64,000 nt of DNA from Octopus vulgaris (taxonomy: Eukaryota), in contig OX597820.1 in the NCBI GenBank assembly GCA_951406725.2, forward strand, positions 84,382,001 through 84,446,000, given 5' to 3'. The notes under the pieces were generated by a model. That model was not told where the DNA came from, did no database searches, and saw nothing but the letters and a program-made list of their open reading frames with translations. Shown piece after piece: positions 4,510 to 61,855 of the stretch. The position numbers and the translations under genes were made by a program. How positions within the stretch are numbered: the first letter of the stretch is position 1; every line of letters begins with the position of its first letter.

Positions 4510-5945
4510 TTTTGTAATAAAGAGAAGTTCTTTACTAATTCGTTGGCTCCAGGTTGTAACGTCCCTAAATTGGTAGAGGGGGGAAATTCTGAAGTTTGGA
4601 TTTTTGTTGTTGGTGCAAATGTCTATTTGTTGACTGAATGCTAATTTTCTGTTTTGGGGAATTTTTATCTGGGATCTGTGCAGGGCCATTCCTTTACGGA
4701 GACTATTATTTTGTTTGGCCTATGTATTGCTCTTGACACCCAGAACAGGTTAGTGTGTGTATCAGGTTCTCCGAAGCACATGTGAAGTTGCTTTTCACTG
4801 TGAAACGTTGTTCCTGTTTGAAGGAGAACTCTGATCCCTCAATTAGATAATCGCATATCCCACAATTGGGTCTTCCACATCGTTTTCACTGTTGACTTCT
4901 GTGTTGTTGAGCGTATATAGGATTGTGTTAGGAGACTTTCATAGATTTGGGCTGTCTCTTGCTTTTTATGATGGTGTGTTTGGAGGATTAAGTTCATTCT
5001 GTGTTCATTTTTTTAGCAGGTGTATGTTTTGGAGGATGGTGTCGAAGGCCTCATTGTTGAGAGGGTTGTGTGTGGAGACGTATGGTAAGGCTTTTGGTTG
5101 TAAAATTTTCTTTAATTTGGGATGTCAGAGTTCCTGGATGTTGAGTTGAAAAGCACGTTGAATGCATATGACAATTAGTGAAGGTGGGTAGTTCCTGGTG
5201 GTAAGTGTATCCTTTAGTTCATGTAGTCGTGTGTCTCTGGTGTTTGCATTAGAAACTATAGTACATATTCTTTTTGCTAAGTTGAAGGGGATATTCATTC
5301 TGGTGTGTCTGGGGTTGCATGAATTGAATGGAAGATATTGCTTGGAATCCGTAGGCTTATAGTATATATCTGTTTCTATTACGTTATTAGATTTCTTAAT
5401 GAGGATGTCTAGGAAGTGGAGTTGTTGCTTGCTATATTCCATCGTGAATTGGATGCTTACGTCAAGTCCATTTAGAAGTCCTTGGAATTCTTTAAGTTTC
5501 GCTATATTTTCCATACCAAAAATGAAATAGTCATCTAGGTGTCTCTTCCAGTTGTTTTCTATGAAGCGGAAGAAAGAGCTGCCGTATCTTTTTAGAACCT
5601 TACAATAAAGTCTGATTTCTAGATATCCCATGACAAGGTTAGCAAAGGAGGGGGCCATTCGCGTACCCATCGCAGTCCCGGATTTTTGTCGATAGAATTT
5701 CTCTTTGAAGGTGAAGTAGTTATTTTCCAGGATGAATTTTAGCCCTTCTATCACGAATTCTTTTTTGATGCGATGTGGGAGTTCGTTGGCGTACTTCTCT
5801 AGCCAGCATTGAATTGCCTCTATTCCTAGAGGTTGTGGGAGATATTGGAATAGAGGTTGACTACATCGAAGGATACTAGTAGTGTGCTCTTGTTTATTGT
5901 TTTAGGAAGGTAATTGAGCATGTCCATATCGTCCCTTATATACCT
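4510..5945 (-). mobile_element. Penelope-like element RT + GIY-YIG endonuclease (5'-truncated, frameshifted)
   Basis: ORF 5125-5754 has GTAMGTRMAPSFANLVMG, RHLDD, FLDI and YYKPT. Upstream are LVSFDVVNL-like residues; downstream are C..C..QYIGQT and ORF 4438-4689 (GIY-YIG). Confidence 0.92.
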
Positions 5946-20556: not shown

Positions 20557-21790
20557 CACCAAAATTCGTCACCGGATAATCATTGTTTTTGATGTAATAT
20601 CATTTATTAAAACCTTGTCTATACAACGCATTCGTTCTCAGTATTAAAGAATCATCCTGTACTTCAGAGCCAAATTATATCCATCATCGAACAGCTCATT
20701 TCCCATAATTCTCCCTGGTTTGTTCTTGCATTTGGATAAAGCTTACAAGTCGGGTTGCACTGCATGAAATTTGTACTGCAGAAAATTCCTGGAAATTTAT
20801 GGGAACATAAGAATGTTGTTAACAGTTTTACATGAATATATTCTGGCCCTATAGGTTATTCAATACAGTTTCCATTTATCAAATATCAGCATGTTTTAAT
20901 TGACCTACATAAATTTACAGCCCGTTATTATATACTTACAACTTTACCTATTTTATCTTTTATACATAGCTTTATAGCGGCAACATTAGCATCGTCTGTT
21001 TTATTCAACATGGTATGTTTCGTTTGATATTACCACTTAGTTTTGAATTCACATTGATATCCTCTCACTACTCCTCATTTATTTAACCTATATTTACGAC
21101 CTTTCTTTGATAATCTGATAGAAAGGTCTTCTTTTTTTCCAACTTCCTATTTCTTTATTAGTCTATTTCCACCTACGGCAGCTTTTTCTTTCGTCCTGGA
21201 CCATACATGAATCCCCCTATTTCAAGGTGCCTGATTTTCATGTTTCCGTGTTTCAAATCCATTCAATTCCCATATTGGTACATCAAGGAAACTACTACCT
21301 GACAGAGGAAAGTCAGAGATAAACCACGTGGGCCTTCTAGCACACGCTATGACGTCTACACACAATTCCTTGACTGGATATTAAAGCTACTAACAATGCA
21401 TTTCGGCATTGCCCGGGTGTTATGACCTACAGCCATATTGCATTATTTGTTCCTTTCATATGGGCAGAACCGGCACAGCTGGTGTATAAGGAACTGGATT
21501 ACTGGCGTAACAGAAGTTATTGTTTGTTTAAAAGTGAAACTGGGAGGTACAATTTGCATGGGTTTGCATGATAGTGCTTTCTGTTCTTAAGAAAGATCAC
21601 AAATTATGTATTGTTTCATGGTATAAACGGGTGTTTATACGATTTTTCCCAGAAATCACGTTTTCAGAATTTTAATTCCACCCCCTCCCGTCTCCACCGC
21701 AATTCCTTAATTTGTAATTTTTTTCAAAATATTCTTTTTCTTCACGTAGTAAAATAAAGAGAAAACGAATTTGGGAAATATATATATATA

Positions 21791-21828
<38 letters not shown>

Positions 21829-24173
21829 TTAGTGCGCGCGTATGTGTGTATGTATACACATATCTTTCAAAATTTTATTTTTCTTAAGAAATACTCAATG
21901 CCCCTTCCCCTACCCCGTCCACCCATCATCTACCCTCTTTCAAAAAAGCTAAAACCTCCCGCTATTTCGTCTGATGTATCCCGCATGCGTAGAATTTTAC
22001 TGCAGACCTCAAAAATGCAATACCACAACCGAAAAACCAGACATGCTAGAAATAACATGTAAACGACATTATTTCTGAAGAAACTTCTCCTCTTTCCAAA
22101 GAGTTAAAAATTAAACACTGCAAGTTTGCAGCTTTTTGAATGTGGTGAGTCGATGGGTGCATGTTTGGAAAGGAGAAAAAAAGGAAGAAGAAAATTCTTA
22201 AAGATTCCTTCTCTGTTTCTTTCTCTGTGGATTACCGACAAAAAAATTGCAAAATAGTAGAAATGAAAATCATTGAGAGTGGGGAGGGAGAACATTAAAA
22301 TATTGAGAACGTTTGTCTTGGGCGAAATCCTAATCTCGTGAATCAAAAACATGAGGATCGGAAAAAAATTGAGAAAAGAATAAGGGGAGGGGGAACAAGT
22401 GTCACCTTTGGCATGCAAAAAATAACAGCTAATGGACAAAATTTCTGGAAAAACGTCCTTAGCATTTTATATCGAATGATATGTTTTTTATATATGCTCA
22501 TCAGAAACACAAATTACAGAATAGAAAAATTTCATTTCCATTGCATTTGAGCCGTAATTTTGCACGAGAACATAGCAAGAGATAGCATAAATCGCACAGA
22601 AGTTTACCTAGAAAGAGTGCGTGTGTGCGTGCGCGCGTGGTCTTGTGTGCTCCTGTGTGTATGTGCCGAAGGAAGTTATTCCATGGCATTCTTACATTTG
22701 AAGTAGCATAGTTGTTAACTCGATTACATTGTCGATCATATTGGATCATATGATTGTTCGGTTATTTACGTATTTTTTTTAATTTGTTTATGCTTTGAAG
22801 AGAGCAGAAATTGAAAGGGAGGAGAAAGTGAAAAGGTGACATTTGCATTGCAGTGAGAGCAGGACGTGAAAGAGAGGAGAAAGTGAAAGTTGTATGCACG
22901 TGTGTGTATGAAATGGACGTTTGTTTGCATGTGCGTGAGAGTGGGAGAGGGAGAGAGTGAATGTGTATGTTGCCATGGACGTATTATCTGTATGTATGTT
23001 TAAGTGGCACTTACTCTCTCTCCCTTTCTTTCTCTCTCTTTCTCTCTCTCTCTCTGACACACACATACACAAATACGCATACATAAATACATATTGGCTG
23101 TATGTATGTATGCGTGTACGTATGCATATGAGAGAAAGAGAGAGTGAGTGGCTATTTTCTCATTACAAATTGAGTAATGGATGTCTTTTAATTGTTGAGG
23201 CATTTTTTTTAAATACAATATTTATGAGCACATTTTCATAAATGTTTGTCATAGCAGAATTCTACTCATGCGTGAAACATCCGACGTAAGTGACACATTA
23301 GAAGCAAATCGAAATATTGCTCGAAAATGACCTGAAAATCGTGCGTTTCCGACGTTATTTTCGTAGTAAAAAAGGAGTTATGCCAGAAATATAGTGTATT
23401 TGGTAGCCTTTATCTTGAGTCATCCCATAAAGAAGGCGGTTTTTTTTATGTTTCTTTTCTTTTTAAAAATTAAGGTTAACAAAGCCCTTTCTCAATCTAA
23501 AATATACTCTCTGTCATTTTCTGTAATGCACTTCCATGAAACTGGTAGACTTGCAAATCCCCACTACCAAAATTCACTTGACCGTGACGAAAAATAATTC
23601 ATCAGTACTGTCCTGACCTTGCCTATAGAATTCATATTTTTCCGTTCAAATGATTTTGAAGACTGTGCAATAAATGATAATGAGATGGGACAATATCTGG
23701 CGAATATGGTGGGTGGGGTATCTTTTCACATTCAAACACGCTCTAACATTTATATCAATTGGAAAAGCCGAATAACCCATGGGATGACCCAATAGATATC
23801 GTTAGATGTTGAACAGTTTTCTTTCTTACAGTACATATGTAACTAATTCGGAGAAAAATTACTTTCATTATTCACACATCGTCACTCCCAAAATGCAACG
23901 CTGTAATATTGGTTCAAATTGACATTGTGAAACTATTATTCTTTTCTAACGAAACCTGCTCTTTGTAGGGACGGGTCTTTCAAATAACTAAAACAGGTTG
24001 CTGAGATAAGGACGAGAATATGTAAATGAAAATGAAGTTTGTTTGGTAACCGAAAGATTACTTAATCGTTTGATACCCTATACATAAAAACCCAGTTCTC
24101 GAAGGCATAAGGAAGATGAATAAACACACACACACACACACAAATTCTGTTATATATATATATATATATATAT

Positions 24174-24721
24174 AATTAATCAATATAGGGTGGCAAAAAA
24201 ATTTTGTAGAATTCTTTTGCCACCAGCGGCCTAGTAGGAAAAAATTAAAATAGTCAAAGACCATTTTTAAGTTCAACATCAACAATAAAGGAACGGCCAT
24301 AATAGGCCATTCACCCACTAGAAATAACAGCCAAAGCTTCAACCGCAAATAAAGGTCAATTCAGTAAACCAGGAGAAAATTTAAAAAACATTTACCCTGT
24401 AATTTCTTATACGATATACCGTTTCATCTGCTGATTAATGGTAAACTAACCTGATTAAATTAAATCAAGCCAATCTTCCACAGGCCCTCAGATTCTTCAG
24501 TAAGAAGTATCTGAGGGCCTGTGGAAGATTGGCTTGATTTAATTTAATCAGGTGAGTTTACCATTAATCAGCAGATGAAACGGTATATCGTATAAGAAAT
24601 TACAGGGTAGATGTTTTTTAAATTTTCTCCTGGTTTACTGAATTGACCTTTATTTGCGGTTGAAGCTTTGGCTGTTATTTCTAGTGGGTGAATGGCCTAT
24701 TATGGCCGTTCCTTTTATTGT

Positions 24722-24725
<4 letters not shown>
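24174..24725 (-). mobile_element. (TA)n-flanked fold-back element A (PLE-derived), ~220 bp inverted arms
   Basis: Arms 24278-24498 and 24504-24725 are near-perfect reverse complements (about 4 differences). Carries a hammerhead. Confidence 0.85.
24404..24506 (-). ncRNA. Type I hammerhead ribozyme with complete core and extended stem II
   Basis: Minus strand TTCTTA CTGAAGA ATCTG[~58 nt]CAGAT GAAA CGG-TATA-TCG TA TAAGAA. Stem I 6 bp, stem II 5 bp base, stem III with UAUA loop, GUA cleavage triplet. Confidence 0.82.
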
Positions 24726-24766
<41 letters not shown>

Positions 24767-24777
<11 letters not shown>

Positions 24778-25090
24778 ATTCGAGACAAAACCACTACTTT
24801 GCAAAACAAACAAGGAAAGACTTAATCAATACATAAAAATTTTTAATATAAAGAAATAAACCGCCACTACAATCGTTTCATGTCTTCAATGACATTCGAC
24901 AGGTGGACTTTCGATCTCCTAATCTGTTTTAATTTAGTTTAAAACAGATTTTTATGTATTGATTAAGTCTTTCCTTGTTTGTTTTGCAAAGTAGTGGTTT
25001 TGTCTCGAATTATATTATATAATATTTTACTATAAAATTGGATTTAATCCTAAATCTGATTTTTCCCTGTAAATTTGGATTTATTCCCTA
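24767..25090. mobile_element. (TA)n-flanked fold-back element B
   Basis: Arms ~24767-24842 and ~24948-25020, inner hairpin AATCTGTTTTAA/TTAAAACAGATT, hammerhead in the loop. Confidence 0.85.
24864..24906 (-). ncRNA. Minimal type I hammerhead (A6U change)
   Basis: Minus strand CCAC CTGTCGA ATGTC-ATTGAA-GACAT GAAA C-GATT-G TA GTGG. Confidence 0.75.
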
Positions 25091-25094
25091 ATAT

Positions 25095-25153
<59 letters not shown>

Positions 25154-26009
25154 GAGAGAGAGAGAGAGATTTTATTTAATGAATTCATAACATTCTACAT
25201 TTATTTTATTAGAGGTTGATTTTAAAATAAATTATGTCAACAATAAAACTTCAGTTTAAATATGAATATATTCCTATAATTAGTGTTTATCCTGAAGTAG
25301 TCACAGTGATTTTCAAGGGACTATATGACTATTAACTAATACCGTGTTGTAAACTGTCATCTGTTTTCTATTGTGATGTAATGATATGTGCTTATTCATA
25401 GATATCCTTTATGTATTATGAATTTTCTTTTGTGTGTGAAGCAAATATTAAATATATAGAAATACAGTGTCTGTTAAGATTTACGGAGTGTATAGAGCCA
25501 AACAGACACACATAATCACAAATATATTATAATGTTTTCATTTTTCTACTCGTGTATACATACGTCCAGTGAAGGTGGACGAGTAATCATTAGTAAAATT
25601 GACATAACGTAGCGTTTTAGATTTATATCAAATCTAAGCGAAGCATAAAGTTCATCAATAGTTCACCTTTGCAAATACTACTAGGTTCTGTTTGGCTTAC
25701 ACAATATATATGGAAGAAATTTTAGTGTTGCAATGGACGAAAAAGAAAATAAATCTTTCAACTATGAAGTCTTTATTGCTTCTCACTGTAAACTGCCTGT
25801 GTTCCATAGGCTCCTGCTTTTGAGGGCAATGTTTTACAACTGCAACTTTCACTGGCCTGCCAGTACTTATTTTTTCGTTTCTTAGTGCAACATTTTCCGA
25901 AGTTCATGTTCCTGAAACAGTGCTAAGTTCTACAATACGATTCAAATCGTCAGGAACTCGTGGGTGCATTAACGGTTGCTGTTCATATTGTAGTTGGATA
26001 ACATCGCTT

Positions 26010-26217
26010 TCAACTTTCGGCACAAGGCCAGCAATTTTCTGAAAGGGCAAAGTCGATTACATTGACACTAGTGCTCAACTGGTACTTGTTTTAAGGACTC
26101 CAAAAGGATAAAAGGCAAAGCTGAGTCAGTCAAATTTGAAGTCAGAACGCAAAGATGCACGAAATATCACTTAGCATTTTCCTCGGCGTGCTAACGATTC
26201 TGCTAGCTGATCGCCTT
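26010..26217 (-). mobile_element. Family 1 SINE, degenerate
   Basis: Homology to 19193-19423. Confidence 0.8.
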
Positions 26218-26922
26218 GCTATTGGATAATATAACAATTATCACTTTTATAGTTTGTTCAACTAGTTAAAGCCTCCGTAGTTTTGTGCAAAATACTTTAA
26301 CTTATACTGCTACAGATGAAAATAATTTGCACATGTCACATACTGAAAATAAGGTATCAAATTCTGTCGACATGTCAAAATAAATATGAACAGGAATTTT
26401 AACTATTACAGAAGCGTTTGTTAATTACTGTTACAAACAAATTCATTTTTCTTTCTCTTAGGAATTTGGTACGATTGTGCCTGAGTTGATAGAGAGGCGG
26501 TCAATTAGTAAGGTCGCATCTTTCCAACCTGCTTATTTCTTATGTTCAGTCTTTTTATTTGTCTCTCCTGCTCTCTCTCCCCCTTTCGCTCTCTGTATAT
26601 ATATATATATATATGTACACACACGCATATATATATCCTTGTATCTCTGAAACGGCTACCATCGAAAATGAAAGAGACCGACACAGAAAACTCACCTGAC
26701 TACGGATTAATAGAATTTACATTTATTATTAGGTATGACTAACTATAAGAAAGAATCATGCTTAAACATTGACATCATATTGTGATAATTCCCAATTTGT
26801 ATAAGATGCCTGATTAGTATAGGGTTCATGTATCACAGTAGCACACTTCAGTTTTGAAAATATAAAAGCATTTAGGTTATGTGTAGATTATATATTCTAA
26901 TCCCAAATGTGAACGTTTGTAC

Positions 26923-26999
<77 letters not shown>

Positions 27000-27002
<3 letters not shown>

Positions 27003-27276
27003 AAAATTAATTAAGGGTAGAAATTGATATTTATCAATTAAGACCAGTGGTCTAGCATATTAAAAAAGAATCCGAAGATTAAAATATTTATATATACCAA
27101 TTAAGGACTGAACAGGAAAAGTGGACAGTCAACATGCTAGATATAGACGTCAAATCGTCATTCTCCACAAAAGATTATGTTTGAGTTTGATCTGAGAACA
27201 TAATCTTTTGTGGAGAATGACGATTTGACGTCTATATCTAGCATGTTGACTGTCCACTTTTCGTGTTCAGTCCTTA

Positions 27277-27280
<4 letters not shown>
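27000..27280. mobile_element. (TA)n-flanked fold-back element C, 84 bp arms
   Basis: Arms 27098-27181 and 27197-27280, one mismatch. Confidence 0.85.
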
Positions 27281-27323
<43 letters not shown>

Positions 27324-27489
27324 CCTTTCTCACAAGCTATTGGAATCTTAGATATATACCATTCTGCCTAAAAAATGGATCTACAAATTCAACATCCCTA
27401 CATATCTCACATCTATTTTCTTTCCTCCACCTCATTCTCTATTTTGTATCCTATTTAAATTAATTATTACTTAACCATCCTCTCACACC

Positions 27490-27541
27490 GTCCCGTATGA
27501 CGGGATATAATTAATAAATATCCTGAAAACAGCTATAAGAC
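27490..27541 (+). ncRNA. Degenerate hammerhead, CAGCTG-loop family
   Basis: GTC CCGTATGA CGGGATAT..ATATCCTG AAAA CAGCTA TA AGAC. Homologous to 39368 and 54789. Confidence 0.55.
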
Positions 27542-27837
27542 CTATCTATAAATGTTCTAATATCTACACACTCAATCTCATTACGCAATAAATGTATATA
27601 TATATATATGTATGTATATTTTGATATTGATATATACACTTTTTAACTTCTAATTTTACATTTAGTGATCTGTATATACCTGTGATTTTGTTCATGGTTG
27701 GTTACAGACCATGCAACAACGTGTTTGTTTTACCTAATGTAGAAATTCATGTACGTGTTTCTGTAACTGATGTATGGTTTAAGTTTAAGTATTTCTCTCT
27801 ACTAATACCTAAGCGGAGACTAACTACAATTGGTAAC

Positions 27838-28046
27838 CTATTTCTTTATTATCCACAAGGGGCTAAACACAGAGGGGACAAACAAGGGCAGACAAAGAGA
27901 TTAAGTCGATTATAACGACCCCAGTGCACAACTGGTACTTATTTAATCGACCCCGAAAGGATGAAAGGCAAAGTCGACCTCGGCAGAATTTGAACTCAGA
28001 ACGTAGCATTTTGCCCGTCGTGCTAACGTTTCTGCCAGCTCGCCGA
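27838..28046 (-). mobile_element. Family 1 SINE
   Basis: Near-identical to 19193-19423 with an internal deletion. Confidence 0.88.
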
Positions 28047-28297: not shown

Positions 28298-31270
28298 TCA
28301 TGAAGGCTTTCTAGCAACTGCCATTTGGTGCATGAGAGAGTTCGATGCAGCTGCCCTCATCTGCCCCTCCTGCCGTGAAGTTGGTTCATCTGGGACACCT
28401 GACAGGAAGAGATCCAGCTTCATTTTAAAGACATCTGCATCCACCCCATGCAGGTCTCTCAGGGTCTTCGGGAGGATATTGAAGAGCTGTGGGCCTCGGA
28501 AGCCCAGGCTATCACAGAATCTTGTCCTACATCTTGATGGCAAGTTTGGAGTCCTAGGCACCACGCAGTGGCGCCCAGTTCTGGCATTTGCGTAACTCTC
28601 GATGCCAAAGTTCAGGACACTTCCCTCCAGGATCTTCCAGATGTATATTATGGCATATCTTTCCCGCCTACGCTCCAGGGAATATAGTTTTAATCTCTTG
28701 AGTCTTTCCCAGTAGCTTACATTCTGCATAGAGGCTATCTTCTTCGTGTAGCTACGTTGGATCGCCTCGAGCTCTATGATCAACTTGACACTGGATGGTG
28801 ACCATAACTGAGAGCAGTAGTCAAAGTGCCTTAGGACAAGTGTCCTCCAGAGGACCATCATAGTTTCTTGTTCTCTTGTTCTAAAGGTTCTGAGGATCCA
28901 TCCGGCCAGTCGTCTACATTTCATTGCCAATTTAGCAACATGTACACGAAAGGTCGCGTCATCACTCATGTAAATACCTAGGTCACGCACTGATTGTGCC
29001 TCTGGGATTGCTATTCCTCCGGGTCCAGTGTATTGATTGGGTATTGCATTTAGTTTTGCATGCTGATAGTATAGAGCTTGAAACTTTTCAGCATTGAACT
29101 GCATGCTATTCTTTTCGGCCCACTTGTATATTTTGTCTAGCTCACATTGCAGGTGTTTAGTGTCCTCACTGTTCTGTATTGCCTGTGAAACTTTTGTATC
29201 ATCTGCATAACTTGTGATCATGGCTCTCTGCGTGGCTGAGGGCATGTCTGAGAGGGCCATTATGAACAGTAGTGGTCCCAGAACAGTGCCCTGCGGAACA
29301 CCGCTCAGTATTTGCGTGTTAATGGAAGTGGCCCCATTGGCCACTACCACCTGACTTCTATCTTTCAGAAAGTCATGAAGCCATTCTCCCAGTTTTCCAA
29401 CTATGTTGAGATCACGCAGTTTGTGACATATCATTCCATGATCGACTTTATCAAATGCCTTTGCAAAGTCGAGGTATATCACTTCCACATTTGAGTGGTT
29501 GAGCAGCCGTTTCAGCACCCAGTCATAGTGTTGTAGGAGCTGAGTTAAACAGCTTCTCCCTGGTCGGAAACCATGTTGGGTCGGGCAGCAAGTCATTCTC
29601 TTCAAGGAAGGTGATCAGCTTCCTTCTGACTATTCGTTCCATGACCTTGCTGATGTGTGAGGTCAGAGAGATAGGTCTATAGTTCTTGGCTTCCGCTCTG
29701 CTACCTCCTTTATGAATGGGGCATATTTTACCTTCCTTCAGTTTTCTTGGAAGTTTGCCAGCTGCAAGGAAGCTCTGAAAGAGGAACTGCAGTGGTCTTG
29801 CTAGGACTCTCTTACATGCTTTTAGGAGGATTGCCGGGAATCCATCGGGGCCAGTAGCTGAGTCTGTTTTCATTTCATCTATAGCCTTGATTACATCGTC
29901 TTCCTTTATATCGATGTAATCTATCGTCGCCGCCTCTGATTTTATATCTGCAGTGGTAAAAAAGTCAGTTGGATTGGTGATTTGGAGATGCCCAAGGGGT
30001 GGAGTGAAAACACTCTTGAATTGCTCATTCAGTATTTCACTTACCCTCATTGGTTTTCCTGTGAGTGTGCCATCCTTTTCGAGGAGTGGCCCTATTCTAC
30101 AGTGCACCGTAGCTGTTTCTTTGGCATACCTGTAGAAAGCTCTGGGGTTAGATTTTATGTTGTCTATAGCCCAGGCTTCTTTGTCTGCTCTTTCCTTTTC
30201 ATGGGAGAGTTGCAGACATTTTTCGATTTCCAACAGTTTTATTTTTAGGCGGGACTTTTCACTGCTTTCAATCAGTTTGTTTAGGCGATTTGAAAATTTT
30301 GTACGCCGTCTCATTAAAATTTTCCTCTCTCTGGGGATTTTGTTCTTGTGTACAGTGGCCTTTCTCTCTGGGACACATTTGTAGCATATGGCTTGCATTA
30401 CAGACATGAATTGTTGAAGTTTCACGTCGATGTCTGGCGAGGAGAGACATTTAGGCCAGTTTTGTTTGAGGATCTCTTTCTCAATTTGTTTCCAGTTTGC
30501 CTTATGGTAGTTCAAGCTGGAAAGATTCTGGGGGTTCCTTGTAGGCTGCATGTCCGTGCTCTCTTTTGGCCCGTACATGGTCAGCTCTATCATGTTGTGA
30601 TCCGAGAGTAGTGTCGGTGTCACTTTCACATTATGGATGAGATCCATGTCATTTGTGAAGCAGAGATCCAGTGTGTTACCTGCCCTGGTTGGTTGGAGTA
30701 TTACCTGCTCCATGTACAGGGTGTTGATGAGGTTCAGGAGGGACCTCGCCTGTCCTCGTTCACATCTTGTCATTCCTGGGAGAGAAAGGCCCTCGGGCCA
30801 TCTGACATTGGGCAGATTGAAGTCTCCCATAAGAAGTACACATATGTGTTGTTCTAATGTGGTTAGAACTTCTTCTATTTTTATAAGGCAGTTTTCAAAC
30901 TTGCCCACATGGCTTGGGGCATCTGGAGGGTGATATGTAGCACACACAACTACATCAAGTTGCCTAATATGTACAATTAGTGTGTCACACACCGAGTTTG
31001 AGTATGACAAGAGGACCTGGGGTGTGAGGTCCTCACGGATGTACATAGCAACACCTCCATGACTCCTTTCTTTCCTGTCGGTCCGTAGTACAGCATACTG
31101 TGGTATGTGTAACTCCGCATCTGCTATATCCGGTTTCAGGTGCGTTTCCGTTAGTGCTATGCATAAGGCTTGATTGCATGCAACAAAATCTCTCAGGAAC
31201 GGGATTTTTGTCCTGTTACTGAGTGTTTGCAGTCCTCTGATGTTCAGTAGGAGCATCGAGGTGAGGTGTA
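28298..31270 (-). pseudogene. LINE ORF2: AP endonuclease + reverse transcriptase, one frameshift near 29580
   Basis: LLNIRGL, LTETHL, MGDFN and SDH (APE). NYRPISL, QHGFR, YLDFAKAFD, GVPQG and YADD (RT). Split over ORFs 29523-31400 and 28298-29605. Confidence 0.93.
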
Positions 31271-32046
31271 CGTTGTTGCCGGTGGTGTCCATCCTGGGTC
31301 TGTTTGCTGTGGTGGTCTGGTATATAGTGGGTAGTCCCACCTGCGGGCTTGGGTTTGATGAAGCCAGGTCAGCTGCTGTACAATCTTTTGTGCCATGCAC
31401 AAAAAAGATTGTTGCTCAGCAGCTGCCCTTTCGACAACATCATGTTGGTGGTTTGTGGCACGCACATCATCTGCGTACCTCCGCTTTGGGGCAAGTGGTG
31501 CGTGGTCCATCGCTTTTCCTTCTGTTGATGGTTTGTCCATCTGCCTCGTGTCTCTGTGGCAGGGTCCCCGATGTGCAAATCGGCAGCCTGCACCTTCCTT
31601 TTCATGCCAGCAGGAACCTCTCAGGTAGAACCTACACACCCGTGTGCGCTGTTTGTTTCCATCTTTTGCGGTTCCACTTCTATTCCTGGTTTTTTCACCC
31701 TTTGGTCCTGCTTGAGCTTTTCCTTTAGCTCTTCCAGCCCTTCTTTTAGTTCTTCCTCCTCCTCTACCTCTTCACCGGGTTCTCCGTCTCCATGGCCTTT
31801 GCTGCCGGTTGGAGAACTTGCACCTGGGTTCACTTCCCGGGCAGGTTTCTCATTCAAAACCTCCTCCCGGGCGTCCACCAGGTGGGGGTGACTTCTTTCA
31901 TCGTCTCCATTCTTGCCATCTTTGCCCCGCTCGTTCTCAAAGATGGCATCAAGTGCGCCATGTGCGACCGTATACGCGCATATGAGCGCACGAATTCCCG
32001 TCTCTTTCGCTCCATCTGAGCCGCTGTCCTTTTGTAGCCTTTGCAC
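31244..32046 (-). pseudogene. LINE ORF1 with coiled-coil-like acidic region and CCCH zinc finger (frameshift near 31640)
   Basis: ORFs 31621-32046 and 31244-31639. CRFYLRGSCWHEKEGAGCRFAH is C-x7-C-x8-C-x3-H. Confidence 0.7.
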
Positions 32047-33072: not shown

Positions 33073-36000
33073 CTAGTCTTGCCGGGTCTTCTCACGCACA
33101 GCATACTTCCATAGGTCTCGGTCTCTAGTCATTTCCATGGTGAGACCTAACGTCCGAAGGTCGTGCTTCACCACTTCGTCCCAGGTTTTCCTGGGTCTAC
33201 CTCTTCCACGGGTTCCCTCAACTGCTAGGGATTGGCACTTTCTCACACACCTATCTTCATCCATTCTCGCCACATGACCATACCAGCGCAATCGTCTCTC
33301 TTGCACACAACAACTGATGCTTCTTAGGTACAACATTTCTCTCAAGGTACTAACGCTCTGTCGAGTAAGTACACTGACATTACACATCCATCGGAGCATA
33401 CTGGCTTCGTTCCTCACGAGCTTACGCATGTCCTCAGCAGTCACGGCCCATGTTTCACTGCCATGTAGCATAGCTGTTCGTACACATGCATCATACAGTC
33501 TGCCTTTTACTCTGAGCGAGAGGCCTTTAGTCACCAGCAGAGGTAAGAACTCCCTAAACTTTGCCCAGGCTATTCTTATTGTAGCAGTTACACTTTCAGC
33601 GCACCCGCCCCCACTACTGTCTTGGTCACCTAGATAGCGGAAGCTATCAACTACTTCTAGTTTTTTCCCCCCGGAAAGTGACGGAAGTTGTTTTCTGCAG
33701 ATTTTCGGAGGTCAATGCTCCAGAGCATCTGCCACATACAAAAACTATCTTCCCAGTTAGCCTACCTTTGACATTGCTGCACCTCTTATGTGTCCATAGC
33801 TTACACTGGGTACATCTTATAGAGTTTCTACCTACACCTTTTCTACAGATCGAGCAGGGCCATCTTCCTGAGGATATTTGTGGATTTTCTAACTTTCTAC
33901 TTATTAGTACTTTGGTTTTAGCTAGGTTGACTCTAAGGCCCCTCGATTCTAAACCCTCCTTCCACACCTGGAACTTCTCCTCCAGTTCTGATAGTGACTC
34001 AGCGATTAGAGCGAGGTCGTCAGCATAGAGGAGCTCCCAGGGGCAACCTGTCTTGAATTCCTCCACAATTGCCTGGAGGACTATGATAAATAGGAGGGGG
34101 CTGAGTACTGAACCCTGGTGGACCCCAACCTCTACCTTGAATTCTTCTGTGTACATGCTGCCAACTCTAACCTTACTTACGGCATCTCTGTACATGGCTT
34201 GCACAGCCCTCACCAGCCATTCATCTATCCCTAGTTTCCTCATTGACCACCAGATGAGGGATCGGGGGACCCTATCAAAGGCTTTCTCCATGTCAACGAA
34301 AGCCAGGTACAGGGGCTTATCTTTGGCTAGGTATTTCTCATGCAGCTGCCTTACCAGGAATATAGCATCAGTGGTGCTTTTCCCTGGAACAAACCCAAAC
34401 TGCATCTCATCTAAACTAACTCTCTCTCTAATTAGTTGGGCTATGACCCTCTCCGTAACCTTCATTACCTGATCCAACAGCTTGATACCTCTGTAATTAT
34501 TTGTATCCAGGGCATCACCTTTACCTTTGGAGCAGTTGACTAGTATGCTGCTACACCAGTCATTGGGTATGACTCCTTCGTGTATCACCTGGTTGACTAT
34601 ACGGGTGACTAGGTTATAGCCGACACTGCCAGATATTTTGAGCATCTCTGCAGTAATTCCTGATGGGCCTGGGGCTTTCCCTGTCTTCATGCTTCTAATT
34701 GCCTTAGCTACCACGGAACTATCAATTCGGATAGCTGGTCCCTCTGTTGGGTCAACATTCGGCAGACTCTCTTTATCCCATTCATTTTCTTTATTCAGCA
34801 ACCTTTCATAGTGGCATCTCCAAACCTCTCTCTTTGCATCCTCATTTAGCGCAAGTGAACCATCATCCATGCGAACACACTTCTCTCCTACCACATCACG
34901 ATTCTCTCTCACACACTGTCTTGCAACACGAAATACCTCAAGTCTTTCATCCTCACGGCTCAGAACATTGGCACATTTTTTCTTATCCGCTTCCCCTCTG
35001 GCTAAATAAACCTGTCTCCTAGCTTCCCTTTTGGCTGTCTGATACAATTCCCTGCTACCACCGTTCTTCCAGTCCTTCCAAGCCTGTCTCTTTTGTCTAA
35101 TAGCCCTGTCAACCACAGTGTTCCACCACCATGTTACTCTAGGTCGAGATGGTACTTTGCTCCATCCACAGATCTGGTCAGTGGCTGTCAGTAGATTGTC
35201 CCGTAGGAATCTCCAGTTGTCTTCCACATTAAGTGAAGCTATATCCCCTTCTATTTCGTCAGAGGCTTCGAGTAGTATGTCTCTAAATCTCTGTCCATTT
35301 GCAGGATCTTTAAGCTTCCAGACCCTTCTCCTCCAAGCTGGTCTTCTTCTGGGCAACCATTTAGCTCTGATCCTGAAGTCGCTAACTACTAATCTATGTT
35401 GGGGAGTACATTCTTCGCCTGGGAAGGTTTTGGCATTTATAATCAGCCCTCTTTCCCTTTTTCTGGCAAGGATGTAGTCAATCTGGCTGGTGTGTCTGCC
35501 AGAAAGGTAGGTGACTAGGTGAGAGGTGGGTTTCCTGAAGTGGGTATTGCAGACCATAAGGTCATTTGCATCGCAGAACTCCAGCAGCCTGGTTCCTTCC
35601 TCATTTCGAGAGCCAAAACCGTAGCCTCCATGGACGCCATGGAAGCCCCCGACATGTCGTCCAACATGTTCATTGAAATCACCTGCCACGAAGAGAAGGT
35701 CACTGTCATTTGTCAATGAGGTAGTCCGCAATAGGGTGTCATAGAATTGGTCTTTTTGTCCTTCCGGTAGCCCTGGTTGAGGGGCATATGCCGAGATGAT
35801 GGTAGCTGTCCTATGGTGAAGAACTAATCTAATTTTAATTACTCTGTCACTTACTCTGACTACCTCGATTACCTTACCTACCCATTTCTCCGCAAGAAGT
35901 ATACCCACGCCCCCGACTCCGTCAGTGTTCCCTGCCCAGAAAATCTTGTACCTGTGTTCCTTGCCTGTGAGGAGCCTAGCAGAACCTCCTCTCCACCTTA

Positions 36001-36160
36001 CTTCCTGGATACAGCATACATCCACACGTCTCCGTTCAAGCAGCTCTACAATCTCTCCAGACCTACCTTTCAATGTGCCAACATTGAGCGTGCCAACTCT
36101 GAGGGTTTGGGAGGTGTGGGCATCAGAGACCCTGGGACGAGGGACAGCCGTGTCATGTAC
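33073..36160 (-). pseudogene. RTE ORF: APE + RT + PHD-like zinc finger, one frameshift near 33665
   Basis: GTLNVGTL, CIQEVRW, AGDFN, IDYIL, NYRGIKL, DMEKAFD, GVHQG and LLYADD. The C-terminus is in ORF 33073-33534 (RRLRWYGHV, RGRGRPRKTW). Confidence 0.93.
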
Positions 36161-36348
36161 CTGAAAAGAAAGCTTGCATTTGGCAGATTTCATATGGAAA
36201 CTCTCGACTACAACCTGCATACTTTTCACAATTTTTTGCGCTATATGTTCAGATAAACCCTTCATAGGTGCTAGTGGGGGGGGGGCAGTTTCCGGTATTT
36301 TGGGTAGAAACTTCCGGTATTGGTGGTGGGGGTGGGAGGGTGGGCGAC

Positions 36349-37223
36349 AAAATCGAAGCAACTAGTTTGAATACTATATTTGAGGGGGAGAAATAATTAA
36401 TTAGATAAAAACTGAATGAAAGCCAGAGAGATAATGAGTGAAAATAGATAAATAATAAAAAAATACGGTAGAGAAAGAAAATAGATAAATAATGAAAAAA
36501 ATACGGTAGGAAACGAGGGGGCATATTTTCGGAGGAGAATGGGATAAACATCGAAGATGGCTCTGAAGGAAAATAAACTTTAAAAATGCAATGCATGTAG
36601 TCGCCATGTTTAGAGAAGAGAAACGAAGGGAGAACAGATCAAGCTATCCAAACAAAACGCTTAAAAATATGAAAAGAGCAGGATGAGATTGACTTAACTG
36701 GCCATTTTTGGAAGTCTGTGTTTTCTCTGAAGGTGTAGCGAGTGAATGGGGATGGGATACGATCGCTCGCTGGCTTTTATAAGGGAATTAGGGAGGGGGA
36801 CGGAAACACGAGAGAGAGAGAGAGAGAGAAAATCGAAACAACTAGTTTGAATACTATATTTGAGGGGGAGAAATAATTAATTAGATAAAAACTGAATGAA
36901 AGCCAGAGAGAGAATGAGTGAAAATAGATAAATAATAAAAAATACGGTAGAGAAAGAAAATAGATAAATAATGAAAAAAAAAAAAATACGGTAGAAAAAC
37001 GAGGGGGCATATTTTCGGAGGAGAATGGGATAAACATCGAAGATGGCTCTGAAGGAAAATAAACTTTAAAAATGCAATGCATGTAGTCGCCATGTTTAGA
37101 GAAGAGAAACGAAGGGAGAACAGATCAAGCTATCCAAACAAAACGCTTAAAAATATGAAAAGAGCAGGATGAGATTGACTTAACTGGCCATTTTTGGAAG
37201 TCTGTGTTTTCTCTGAAGGTGTA
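36349..37223. repeat. ~390 bp direct repeat, 2 copies (36349-36737, 36829-37223)
   Basis: Near-identical copies, period ~480-486 bp. Confidence 0.92.
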
Positions 37224-38867: not shown

Positions 38868-38870
<3 letters not shown>

Positions 38871-39259
38871 ATATATAGGGAGATGTACTCGCATAGCAAG
38901 TGATTTGATCTCAGATCGTGTGCTGAAACGAAAACAATTGCAGCGTGGAAGGTGTTTGTAAGCCATTTAAGAAACACACAAGAACCGTTCGATTCACTTC
39001 AACATTTAAGTTTAATTTGTCAAAATATTTTCGTCGCTAAAATCCGCGACCTGTTCACTGACAGAAATCCGTGCTGCATCTAAGAAAGTAACAGTTAGTT
39101 CGTCATATATATGTACGTATGTATGTGTGATACACACATACACACGTACATATATATGACGAACTAACTGTTACTTTCTTGACAAATTAAACTTAAATGT
39201 TGAAGTTAATCGAACGGCTCTTGTGTGTTTCTTAAATGGCTTACAAACACCTCCCACAC

Positions 39260-39263
<4 letters not shown>
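38868..39263. mobile_element. (TA)n-flanked fold-back element D
   Basis: Outer arms 38939-39023 / 39179-39263, inner arms ~39082-39128 / ~39132-39180. Same family as 59531-59720. Confidence 0.85.
39018..39063 (-). ncRNA. Minimal type I hammerhead, G3-C8 core variant
   Basis: Minus strand TGTCA GTGAACA G GTCGC-GGATTTTA-GCGAC GAAA ATAT TT TGACA. Stems I and II are perfect. Confidence 0.7.
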
Positions 39264-48747: not shown

Positions 48748-48751
<4 letters not shown>

Positions 48752-49053
48752 GAGGGGTAAAGTTTATTAAATAATTAATTATTTAATCAATTAATTAATA
48801 ATTTTATCAAGTAGATCGGTACGTTAAAATAACCTTTATAGGTAAAATTATCCACATAATTATAATTAGGGTTCATCTAATTGCTTCATCACATACCGAA
48901 TTTAGAAATAGGAGTTAAAATTCCTATTCTGCGACAATAAGAATCTCCATGACGGTAAATATTTCCCGTTATGGAGATTCTTATAGTAGCAGAAAAAAGA
49001 ATTCTAACTCGTATTTCTAAATTCGGTATGTGGTGAAGCAATTAGCTGAACTC

Positions 49054-49061
<8 letters not shown>
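48748..49061. mobile_element. (TA)n-flanked fold-back element E, ~95 bp diverged arms
   Basis: Arms ~48861-48955 and ~48966-49061. A further partial copy lies at 49124-49180. Confidence 0.8.
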
Positions 49062-61019: not shown

Positions 61020-61855
61020 GTGGTTATAGAATGGTCCTCCTGAATGGGATCTGGATGTTACTCCATTCGGATTTTCGGTTTGAGAGTAGGTTTGTATTCT
61101 TGTATACAAACAGATTCTGTGACCTGTCTCATCATTGCATCGGTGGGATGTGTTGATAGGATGTTTAACTTAAGTTTCCCTAAGAATCCCTTGTGGCAGT
61201 CTACAGCATGTTGATAGAAGATGGAATTTGGCTTCTTTTCAATGTAGTTGTCCAGGTTTTCATTGAACCTATCATTGATAATCCTAGAAGTCTCACCTAT
61301 GTATGACTCTGGGTTAGTCGCCCAAGCTTCCTTGCCCTTGGTCTTGCAGTTCACATGTGGTTTTCTCGAACATACTGCACAATTACTTTGATACGTGATT
61401 CTATCAAATGGATATGATCTGCATAATGCAGATTTGATAGTCCTACCTGTCTTTTCTACAAATTTGATTCTAAGGCCAGTAGTGCGCAGGATTTTCTTGA
61501 ATGCCTTACTTAGCTCGTTCTTAGGTGTGGCGTCAACGAACATTAGTCCGTGAAATTTCCTGTTATCATACCAAGTATTGTTTCTCATCCTTTGTTGGTG
61601 TCTCTCTCAAGCCTATTCCAGAAATTGTTGCAGTATAGGGGGCATATACCGTTTTCGTCGCTCCTTAGAATGCGTTCGAATCTTGAATTTGCTCTGTTGT
61701 ATACTCTGACTCTATCGTCTTGTGTGTATCCGGAGAGATGCATTCGGAATATGTAGTGCTCGATGTGCTGTTGTCGTTCTTGTGGTTGGCATAGTGGGGA
61801 TGCATTCCTCATTACTCTAATTAAGTCTGCCACTAGGATGTTGAGTTTGGTAGTG
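61020..61855 (-). mobile_element. Penelope-like (Neptune-type) RT C-terminus, Cys-rich linker and GIY-YIG
   Basis: ORFs 61585-61833 and 61058-61588: MHLSGY, CAVC..NC, YIGETSR..RF.E, RQVTESVCI..KPTL. Confidence 0.85.

What the first reader, a model, noticed from the sequence alone, without database searches (positions are those of the whole stretch)
24174..24725. Fold-back palindrome A turns exactly at the 5' edge of its ribozyme
Seen: ~220 bp near-perfect arms centred on CTTC-AGTAA-GAAG (24495-24507), which is the stem I/core junction of the hammerhead. The return arm starts inside the core (GAAGT ATCTG), so only one arm has an intact ribozyme. Both ends run into (TA)n. Inference: the cDNA 3' end snapped back on a micro-hairpin and primed second-strand synthesis during insertion. 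If transcribed, the locus gives long dsRNA, a potential ADAR or siRNA substrate.
Basis: partly seen in the sequence, partly recalled or inferred. Interest (0 to 1): 0.7.

Follow-up and report, generated by a model that had tools for sequence, protein, structure and literature searches.

The report
Twin-primed retrozyme palindrome, not fold-back
This mirror-image sequence is one young copy of a small non-coding jumping repeat with a predicted self-cutting RNA motif; its sister copies turn at many other places, so the turn at the ribozyme edge is likely mostly chance, and the mirror shape likely comes from two DNA copies of one RNA, started at two fixed sites and joined head to head.

Summary
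The palindrome is real: 221-nt arms, a 5-nt loop at the stem I/core junction of a type I hammerhead motif, and only the left arm intact. It is one insertion of a 492-nt tandem non-coding family (non-LTR retrozyme type) with hundreds of copies in (TA)n. The family has two fixed outer ends (monomer 132 and about 238): 79 of 100 and 29 of 40 anchored loci pair one with the other, and none repeats the same end. Inner turns are not enriched at the ribozyme 5' edge (7 of 192 ends, 9.8 expected). They cluster at the predicted cleavage site (57, 13.7 expected). In 37 of 69 insertions neither arm can be a copy of the other, yet arms share variants. Best reading: a Penelope-type enzyme primed two cDNAs on one RNA and repair joined them. 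Snap-back fits this one copy geometrically but is not needed. An autonomous Penelope family here follows the same rule (12 of 12). The structure is known for Penelope elements, and this scan reported it on other DNA of this genome. The junction was not confirmed in independent contigs; transcription and cleavage are untested.

The parts
24151..24174 (.). Left (TA)n target microsatellite; its boundary with the element is ambiguous by a few bases
   Evidence: Sequence
24172..24277 (-). 106-nt one-sided tail (monomer 133-238) ending at the family's long terminus; contains a 14-bp hairpin (24189-24224)
   Evidence: Absent from the right arm; maps to monomer 238; hairpin
24278..24506 (-). Left arm, part shared with the right arm plus the loop (monomer 396 round through the cleavage site to 132)
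   Evidence: family contigs part from the window after 24506
24404..24506 (-). Type I hammerhead motif: stem I TTCTTA/TAAGAA, core CTGAAGA (24500-24494), long stem II, GAAA, short stem III, predicted cleavage after GTA at 24410
   Evidence: Motif scan; constrained fold -27.8 versus free -30.6 kcal/mol; variation in 236 copies; no Rfam hit; activity not tested
24495..24508 (.). Head-to-head junction: CTTC-AGTAA-GAAG, GAA shared by both arms, T at 24508 found in none of 138 other copies of that position
24504..24725 (+). Right arm (monomer 404 to 132), ending at the family's short terminus; broken hammerhead; carries three private substitutions and, read from the alignment, the extra T
24724..24777 (.). 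Right (TA)n target microsatellite, shared with the next insertion

Best explanation
The sequence is one young insertion of a 492-nt non-coding tandem repeat with a hammerhead motif, and its mirror shape likely comes from two cDNAs that a Penelope-type enzyme likely primed on one RNA at two fixed sites and that repair likely joined head to head. Steps: (1) shown: the family forms tandem arrays of near-identical units, each with a type I hammerhead motif, inserted in (TA)n. (2) inferred: arrays are transcribed and self-cleave, giving linear and probably circular RNA. (3) inferred from in vitro work on another Penelope element: the enzyme nicks both strands of (TA)n and starts reverse transcription inside the RNA. 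(4) shown: the two outer ends are fixed at monomer 132 and about 238, one of each per insertion; inferred: these are the two priming sites. (5) inferred: both cDNAs run towards the RNA 5' end and stop at the cleaved end, at a hairpin, or at a break; here they stopped 8 nt apart (396 and 404). (6) shown: junctions carry micro-homology or short fill copied from the element; inferred: the two cDNA ends were annealed by micro-homology-mediated end joining, here on GAA/TTC. The position at the ribozyme 5' edge is likely mostly incidental.
For: 492-nt unit in tandem; 457 exact core sites, 181 short-end sites and 681 long-end sites in G000. Of 100 loci anchored on the short end (first 100 of 181), 79 have an inverted arm ending at the long terminus and none has a second short end. 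Of 40 anchored on the long end, 29 end at 120-140 and none at 225-245. Self-copy is geometrically impossible in 37 of 69 and in 52 of 96 by a looser test; some pairs share no sequence (L046: 24-132 with 173-238). Of 24 near-symmetric junctions only 3 allow self-copy, and several have a 0-1 nt loop (L088, L080, L127, L064, L068). Arms are identical over monomer 35-125 in 58 of 66 loci, mean 0.15 differences against 2.66 between loci; the window's arms share the rare T56C. Inner ends pile up at the cleavage site, 57 of 192. Where both ends lie there, the 132 arm reaches further in 13 of 16 (counted; p=0.021), as expected if the 132-primed enzyme leads. Micro-homology of 2 nt or more in 26 of 39 insertion-free junctions, against 18% by chance. 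Unit-specific variants are not mirrored between arms: 8 of 133 in register, 20 of 449 out of register. An autonomous RT plus GIY-YIG element in the same genome has two ends 34 nt apart, one of each, in all 12 of 20 regions where both ends were resolved. PMC11167929: a Penelope protein cuts and extends both strands and starts at two internal RNA sites that bound the tail.
Against: For this copy alone, snap-back and two-cDNA annealing give the same junction. All arm differences sit in the right arm, which error-prone copying could cause, though 3 substitutions in 221 nt is not significant (p=0.075). The geometric test assumes nothing was deleted at the centre after insertion. The mirror test is weakened because many unit variants are G>A or C>T (50 of 133) and may postdate insertion. 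21 of 100 short-end loci and 11 of 40 long-end loci do not show the two-end pattern (single arms, a gap, other). No autonomous partner was found: four Penelope families share no clear sequence with the unit. The hammerhead fold is 2.8 kcal/mol above the free fold. PMC11167929 saw no difference in start site between strands in vitro, and no need for ribozyme cleavage. The junction has no independent read support.
Confidence: 0.75

Rival explanations
1. Fold-back plus resolution: one cDNA primed at 238 snaps back at its 3' end, second-strand synthesis makes the return arm, the endonuclease cuts the product at 132, and later deletions at the unstable centre make most copies asymmetric. This joins the first reader's model to the self-priming idea in PMC3846280 and the 'EN-mediated resolution' idea in PMC8557442.
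For: This copy fits the geometry. Arms share variants. Symmetric centres are enriched beyond chance (9 of 38 away from the cleavage site, 2.5 expected). Arm lengths correlate (rho 0.48). Snap-back is described for R2 insertions (PMC11371274 passages). L035 shows a short snap-back fill. Central deletion in long palindromes is recalled, not found in the passage search.
Against: It needs one-sided deletions of up to 3.5 kb (L062: 4076 versus 554 nt) and centre revision in more than half of very young copies. Perfect palindromes with 0-1 nt loops persist unrevised. It does not predict that the 132 arm reaches further at the RNA 5' end (13 of 16). No excess of mirrored variants. Two internal start sites are shown in vitro.
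Confidence: 0.15
2. The ribozyme's 5' edge is a real, minor stop site: reverse transcriptase pauses on leaving the folded hammerhead, so two cDNAs stop there together. The mechanism is otherwise as in the best explanation.
For: 3 of 96 other insertions have both inner ends in 388-412 (L127, L155, L176), that is 3 of 15 near-symmetric centres away from the cleavage site (p about 0.04 by hand). A hairpin elsewhere in the unit is a stop site (22 of 192 ends, 8.6 expected).
Against: All inner ends together show no excess there (7 of 192, 9.8 expected, p=0.86). The window was chosen after seeing this copy. A 3-bp snap-back site exists at 54 of 492 positions.
Confidence: 0.2
3. The palindrome is an assembly or library artefact (chimeric hairpin read).
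For: No listed contig in four runs crosses the centre. The right arm has private differences.
Against: The right arm ends at the family's fixed short terminus and enters (TA)n, followed by unrelated sequence; a hairpin chimera would mirror the left flank. The same architecture recurs at more than 100 loci with different centres and in other families.
Confidence: 0.04

Closest known systems
Metazoan non-LTR retrozymes (PMC7229834, passages; bioRxiv 10.64898/2026.07.22.740005, parts 1-3 of 5)
   Same: Non-coding, low-GC tandem units, each with a type I hammerhead motif; dispersed monomers to multimers; proposed dependence on Penelope elements.
   Different: Unit 492 nt (about 300 nt typical, 350-390 in mussel; 51-972 across families in the preprint) and a long stem II. 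The passages seen do not describe head-to-head arrays with two fixed ends: 'inverted' occurs 0 times in PMC7229834 and once in the preprint (not in the parts read). Circles and cleavage are not shown here.
Penelope-like element insertions with inverted pLTR and tail (PMC8557442, passages; PMC3846280, passages)
   Same: Inverted 5'-truncated copy joined head to head, tandem units, a tail at one end only, (TA)n targets, palindromes at inverted junctions.
   Different: No ORF; the tail is 106 nt, not 30-40 nt. Those papers suggest self-priming or endonuclease resolution as causes; the family data here favour two priming events.
Poseidon element of Anolis, in vitro (PMC11167929, parts 1-2 of 4)
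   Same: Two internal start sites bounding the tail; both DNA strands cut and extended; AT-rich targets.
   Different: There the start site did not differ by strand and no RNA ends were seen at the cleavage site. Here each insertion uses each site once, and inner ends pile up at the predicted cleavage site.
Snap-back junctions of R2-based insertions (PMC11371274, passages)
   Same: A cDNA 3' end can prime on itself; short self-templated fill is seen at some junctions here.
   Different: Here the second arm ends at a fixed site and often holds sequence that the first arm lacks.

Membership tests
Non-LTR retrozyme | Short tandem units without a coding frame | tested here: met
   492-nt units in arrays; longest stop-free frame over this copy is 100 codons and runs into the microsatellite; the whole unit was not scanned for ORFs separately
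Non-LTR retrozyme | Type I hammerhead motif in each unit | tested here: met
   Motif and three stems. In 236 copies N7 takes all four bases, H17 is A or C, and the stem I flanks are unchanged in 228 (the core letters were fixed by the search pattern). No Rfam hit
Non-LTR retrozyme | Self-cleavage of the RNA | tested here: inconclusive
   Indirect only: 57 of 192 inner ends at the predicted site; the hammerhead fold is 2.8 kcal/mol above the free fold
Non-LTR retrozyme | Expressed as circular RNA | tested here: inconclusive
   Runs only guessed to be RNA hold family contigs of 523 and 472 nt; contigs cannot tell a circle from a tandem array or from DNA
Penelope-type insertion | Inverted 5'-truncated copy joined head to head | tested here: met
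   79 of 100 and 29 of 40 loci
Penelope-type insertion | Tail at one end only | tested here: met
   106 nt here, longer than the 30-40 nt described
Penelope-type insertion | (TA)n or AT-rich target | tested here: met
   Loci were picked without regard to flanks and their resolved outer ends run into (TA)n; later sets were anchored on TA at one end by design
Penelope-type insertion | Sequence shared with the pLTR of an autonomous element | tested here: inconclusive
   No significant match to four families tested; others in the genome were not examined
Autonomous Penelope-like element | RT plus GIY-YIG open reading frame | tested here: not met
   None in the insert or the unit arrays; it is non-autonomous
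Fold-back (snap-back) inversion | Second arm contained in the first, with a loop of 3 nt or more | tested here: inconclusive
   Met for this copy; not met for 37 of 69 sister insertions
Fold-back (snap-back) inversion | Variants mirrored between arms in register | tested here: not met
   8 of 133 in register, 20 of 449 out of register; weakened by post-insertion mutation

The most novel reading that the evidence does not exclude
A Penelope dimer loads on one RNA at two fixed sites, one per nicked DNA strand, and both enzymes copy the same molecule in convoy: the one primed at 132 leads to the ribozyme-cut 5' end and the one primed at 238 stops some 15-20 nt behind it. Penelope palindromes would then be twin-primed joints, not self-primed hairpins, and the genomic junctions would record in vivo hammerhead cleavage.
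Probability: 0.45. Interest if true: 0.62.

Novelty: new member of a known kind. Interest (0 to 1): 0.36.

Why it matters
How Penelope elements make their inverted, one-tailed insertions is stated to be unresolved (PMC8557442), and self-priming was the published guess for the palindromes (PMC3846280). This short, young, abundant family lets the models be told apart by counting junctions, and the counts favour two priming events on one RNA. It also gives insertion-level support for the proposal that animal retrozymes ride on Penelope enzymes. The single locus itself is ordinary for its family.

Tried and rejected
Rfam: no hit at gathering score; the miRNA-family hits at E<=10 only reflect a long hairpin. 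Special role of the ribozyme 5' edge: not enriched overall. Partner search: four Penelope families found through window or locus fragments share no significant sequence with the unit; by eye, the long end of the family resembles the unit's long end (CCACC-NNN-TATTGAT), a weak hint only. A CCCT motif near long ends was seen in 6 of 6 hand-picked families but did not hold in an independent set (3 of 27 long ends, 2 of 27 short ends; that set may include unrelated inverted repeats). Sequencing runs: no RNA holder listed on record; no listed contig crosses the centre; neither is evidence about expression or about the assembly. The first exact junction walk stopped at homopolymers and was redone; L115 is mis-anchored. 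No host gene was recognised among stop-free frames in 21000-28000, which cannot exclude an intron. The literature search for central deletion in palindromes gave no usable passage. The four papers listed for 'octopus' plus 'hammerhead ribozyme' did not appear to describe this family by title; I did not read them for it. Absence from print rests only; bioRxiv supplements were not seen.

Full report
Observation. The longest inverted repeat in the window has arms 24287-24498 and 24504-24715, 99% complementary, 5 nt apart. With one gap the arms align over 221/222 nt with three substitutions. The centre reads CTTC-AGTAA-GAAG followed by a T.T mismatch. A motif scan finds one type I hammerhead in the 64 kb, on the minus strand, core starting at 24500 and predicted cleavage after 24410. 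Rfam does not detect it. The loop is the stem I/core junction, and the right arm lacks the first stem I strand and C3-U4.

What it is. A search of the own genome (2.8 Gb, 227 contigs) returned near-identical copies, many spaced 492 nt apart (40 of 1634 candidates scored). The unit is 492 nt. I numbered it from the first base after the predicted cleavage site; the core then starts at 402. There are 457 exact core sites. Among 236 ribozyme copies, the free position N7 takes all four bases, the cleavage base is A or C, and the stem I flanks are unchanged in 228; the pattern fixed the core letters, so their conservation was not tested. The hammerhead fold is -27.8 kcal/mol against -30.6 for the free fold. 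This matches the description of metazoan non-LTR retrozymes (PMC7229834, passages). Cleavage and circles were not shown. Two runs only guessed to be RNA hold unit-length contigs of 523 and 472 nt, which a circle, a tandem array or DNA could give.

Two fixed outer ends. In the first 30 loci the resolved outer ends lay near monomer 132 or 233-242, in (TA)n. I then fetched the first 100 of 181 sites of the short end. Of these, 69 were simple two-arm insertions, 6 complex two-arm, 4 had a very short second arm, 10 had one arm with TA on both sides, 8 one arm with other sequence, 2 other and 1 a gap. So 79 of 100 end at the long terminus, and none has a second short end. I also fetched 40 of the first 42 of 681 long-end sites, leaving out two already held. 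Of these, 29 end at 120-140, none at 225-245, 8 are single arms and 3 end elsewhere. The window copy is the shortest form of this plan: 238 on the left, 132 on the right.

In 96 simple two-arm insertions, 7 of 192 inner ends fall in 388-412, the ribozyme's 5' edge (9.8 expected, p=0.86). In contrast 57 fall in 488-30, the cleavage site (13.7 expected, p=7e-21), and 22 in 205-226, the 3' arm of a hairpin (8.6 expected). Centres are therefore tied to the ribozyme, but to its cut site. A minor stop there is not excluded.

Fold-back or two cDNAs. A fold-back needs one arm to lie within the other with a loop of at least 3 nt. That fails in 37 of 69 young insertions and in 52 of 96 by a looser test. 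Some pairs share no sequence at all. Of 24 near-symmetric junctions only 3 pass, and several are palindromes with 0-1 nt loops. Yet the arms come from one template: identical over 91 nt in 58 of 66 loci, 0.15 differences on average against 2.66 between loci. In 26 of 96 the arm lengths differ by about the tail length, as expected if both cDNAs stop at one RNA end. At the cut site the 132 arm reaches further in 13 of 16 (from; p=0.021). Unit-specific variants are not mirrored (8 of 133 in register, 20 of 449 out of register), though many may postdate insertion. Junctions show micro-homology of 2 nt or more in 26 of 39 insertion-free cases (18% by chance), and 21 of 69 carry fill over 5 nt, mostly matching the element in part. 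That pattern resembles polymerase-theta end joining (recalled, not tested). For the window copy itself both routes give the same junction; the snap-back hairpin is weak (-2.2 kcal/mol), and such a site exists at 54 of 492 positions.

The enzyme. A Penelope fragment in the window led to a young family with 784-residue frames that carry RT (E 3.5e-8) and GIY-YIG (E 3.8e-4, just under the curated cut-off). Of 20 regions fetched, 12 had both ends resolved, and all 12 pair two ends 34 nt apart, one of each. The neighbouring non-coding family at 24772-25108 does the same with a tail of about 89 nt. PMC8557442 (passages) describes the inverted copy, the one-sided 30-40 nt tail and (TA)n bias. PMC3846280 (passages) ascribes junction palindromes to self-priming. 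PMC11167929 (parts 1-2 of 4) shows two internal start sites bounding the tail and extension on both strands. The preprint 10.64898/2026.07.22.740005 (parts 1-3 of 5; supplements not seen) argues that animal retrozymes depend on Penelope elements. I did not find the partner: none of four families shares clear sequence with the unit.

Limits. The centre is not crossed by any listed contig in the runs laid, so the junction rests on the assembly and on the family pattern. The geometric argument assumes no later deletion at centres. Read-through would give a long duplex (-408 kcal/mol), but transcription of this locus is unknown. Among substitutions fixed in all copies within a young locus, A>G occurs at 7 sites and T>C at none, a hint of edited template RNA; the window's own shared T56C goes the other way.

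Verdict. Real feature, known kind of element, known kind of insertion. This scan reached the same reading on other DNA of this genome; I had set my reading before that look-up, and those notes are not independent support. Interest 0.36.

Noticed in passing
window 24772-25108: A second two-arm insertion in the same (TA)n run, of an unrelated non-coding family (748 first-look candidates) with a one-sided tail of about 89 nt and a minimal hammerhead-like motif (TTGAAGA-CAT-GAAAC) whose stem I was not found.
   Followed up: partly
window 26999-27281, 38868-39262, 48748-49058: Three more two-arm inserts between (TA)n runs with one-sided extensions (about 99, 72 and 116 nt); no hammerhead-like motif found in them; 38868-39262 matches sequence flanking the coding part of the Penelope family.
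   Followed up: partly
L042, L107, L108, L112 and others, junctions near monomer 5-28: Reiterated fill of the T-rich/AAA word (up to 110 nt) between the arms at the predicted RNA 5' end, like repeated slippage synthesis.
   Followed up: no
L205, L211, L219, L221: The young 784-residue Penelope family has a long upstream frame that runs on past the start of the RT frame in another phase, suggesting a two-frame or frameshift arrangement.
   Followed up: partly
Long ends of window inserts 24174, 25108, 26999, 48748 and L066: Families with tails of about 90-107 nt share CCCT 5-19 nt before the long end; not general across all two-arm structures. It may mark a common partner enzyme.
   Followed up: partly
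window 5125-5901, 61058-61606; 28298-31415, 33073-36361: Penelope RT and endonuclease fragments, and two large LINE-like RT/endonuclease frames (named from the translation, not scanned).
   Followed up: partly
L126 junction: 171 nt of unrelated sequence captured between the two arms.
   Followed up: no
Young loci L031-L130: Locus-fixed substitutions: A>G at 7 sites, T>C at none, a possible trace of A-to-I editing of the template RNA.
   Followed up: partly
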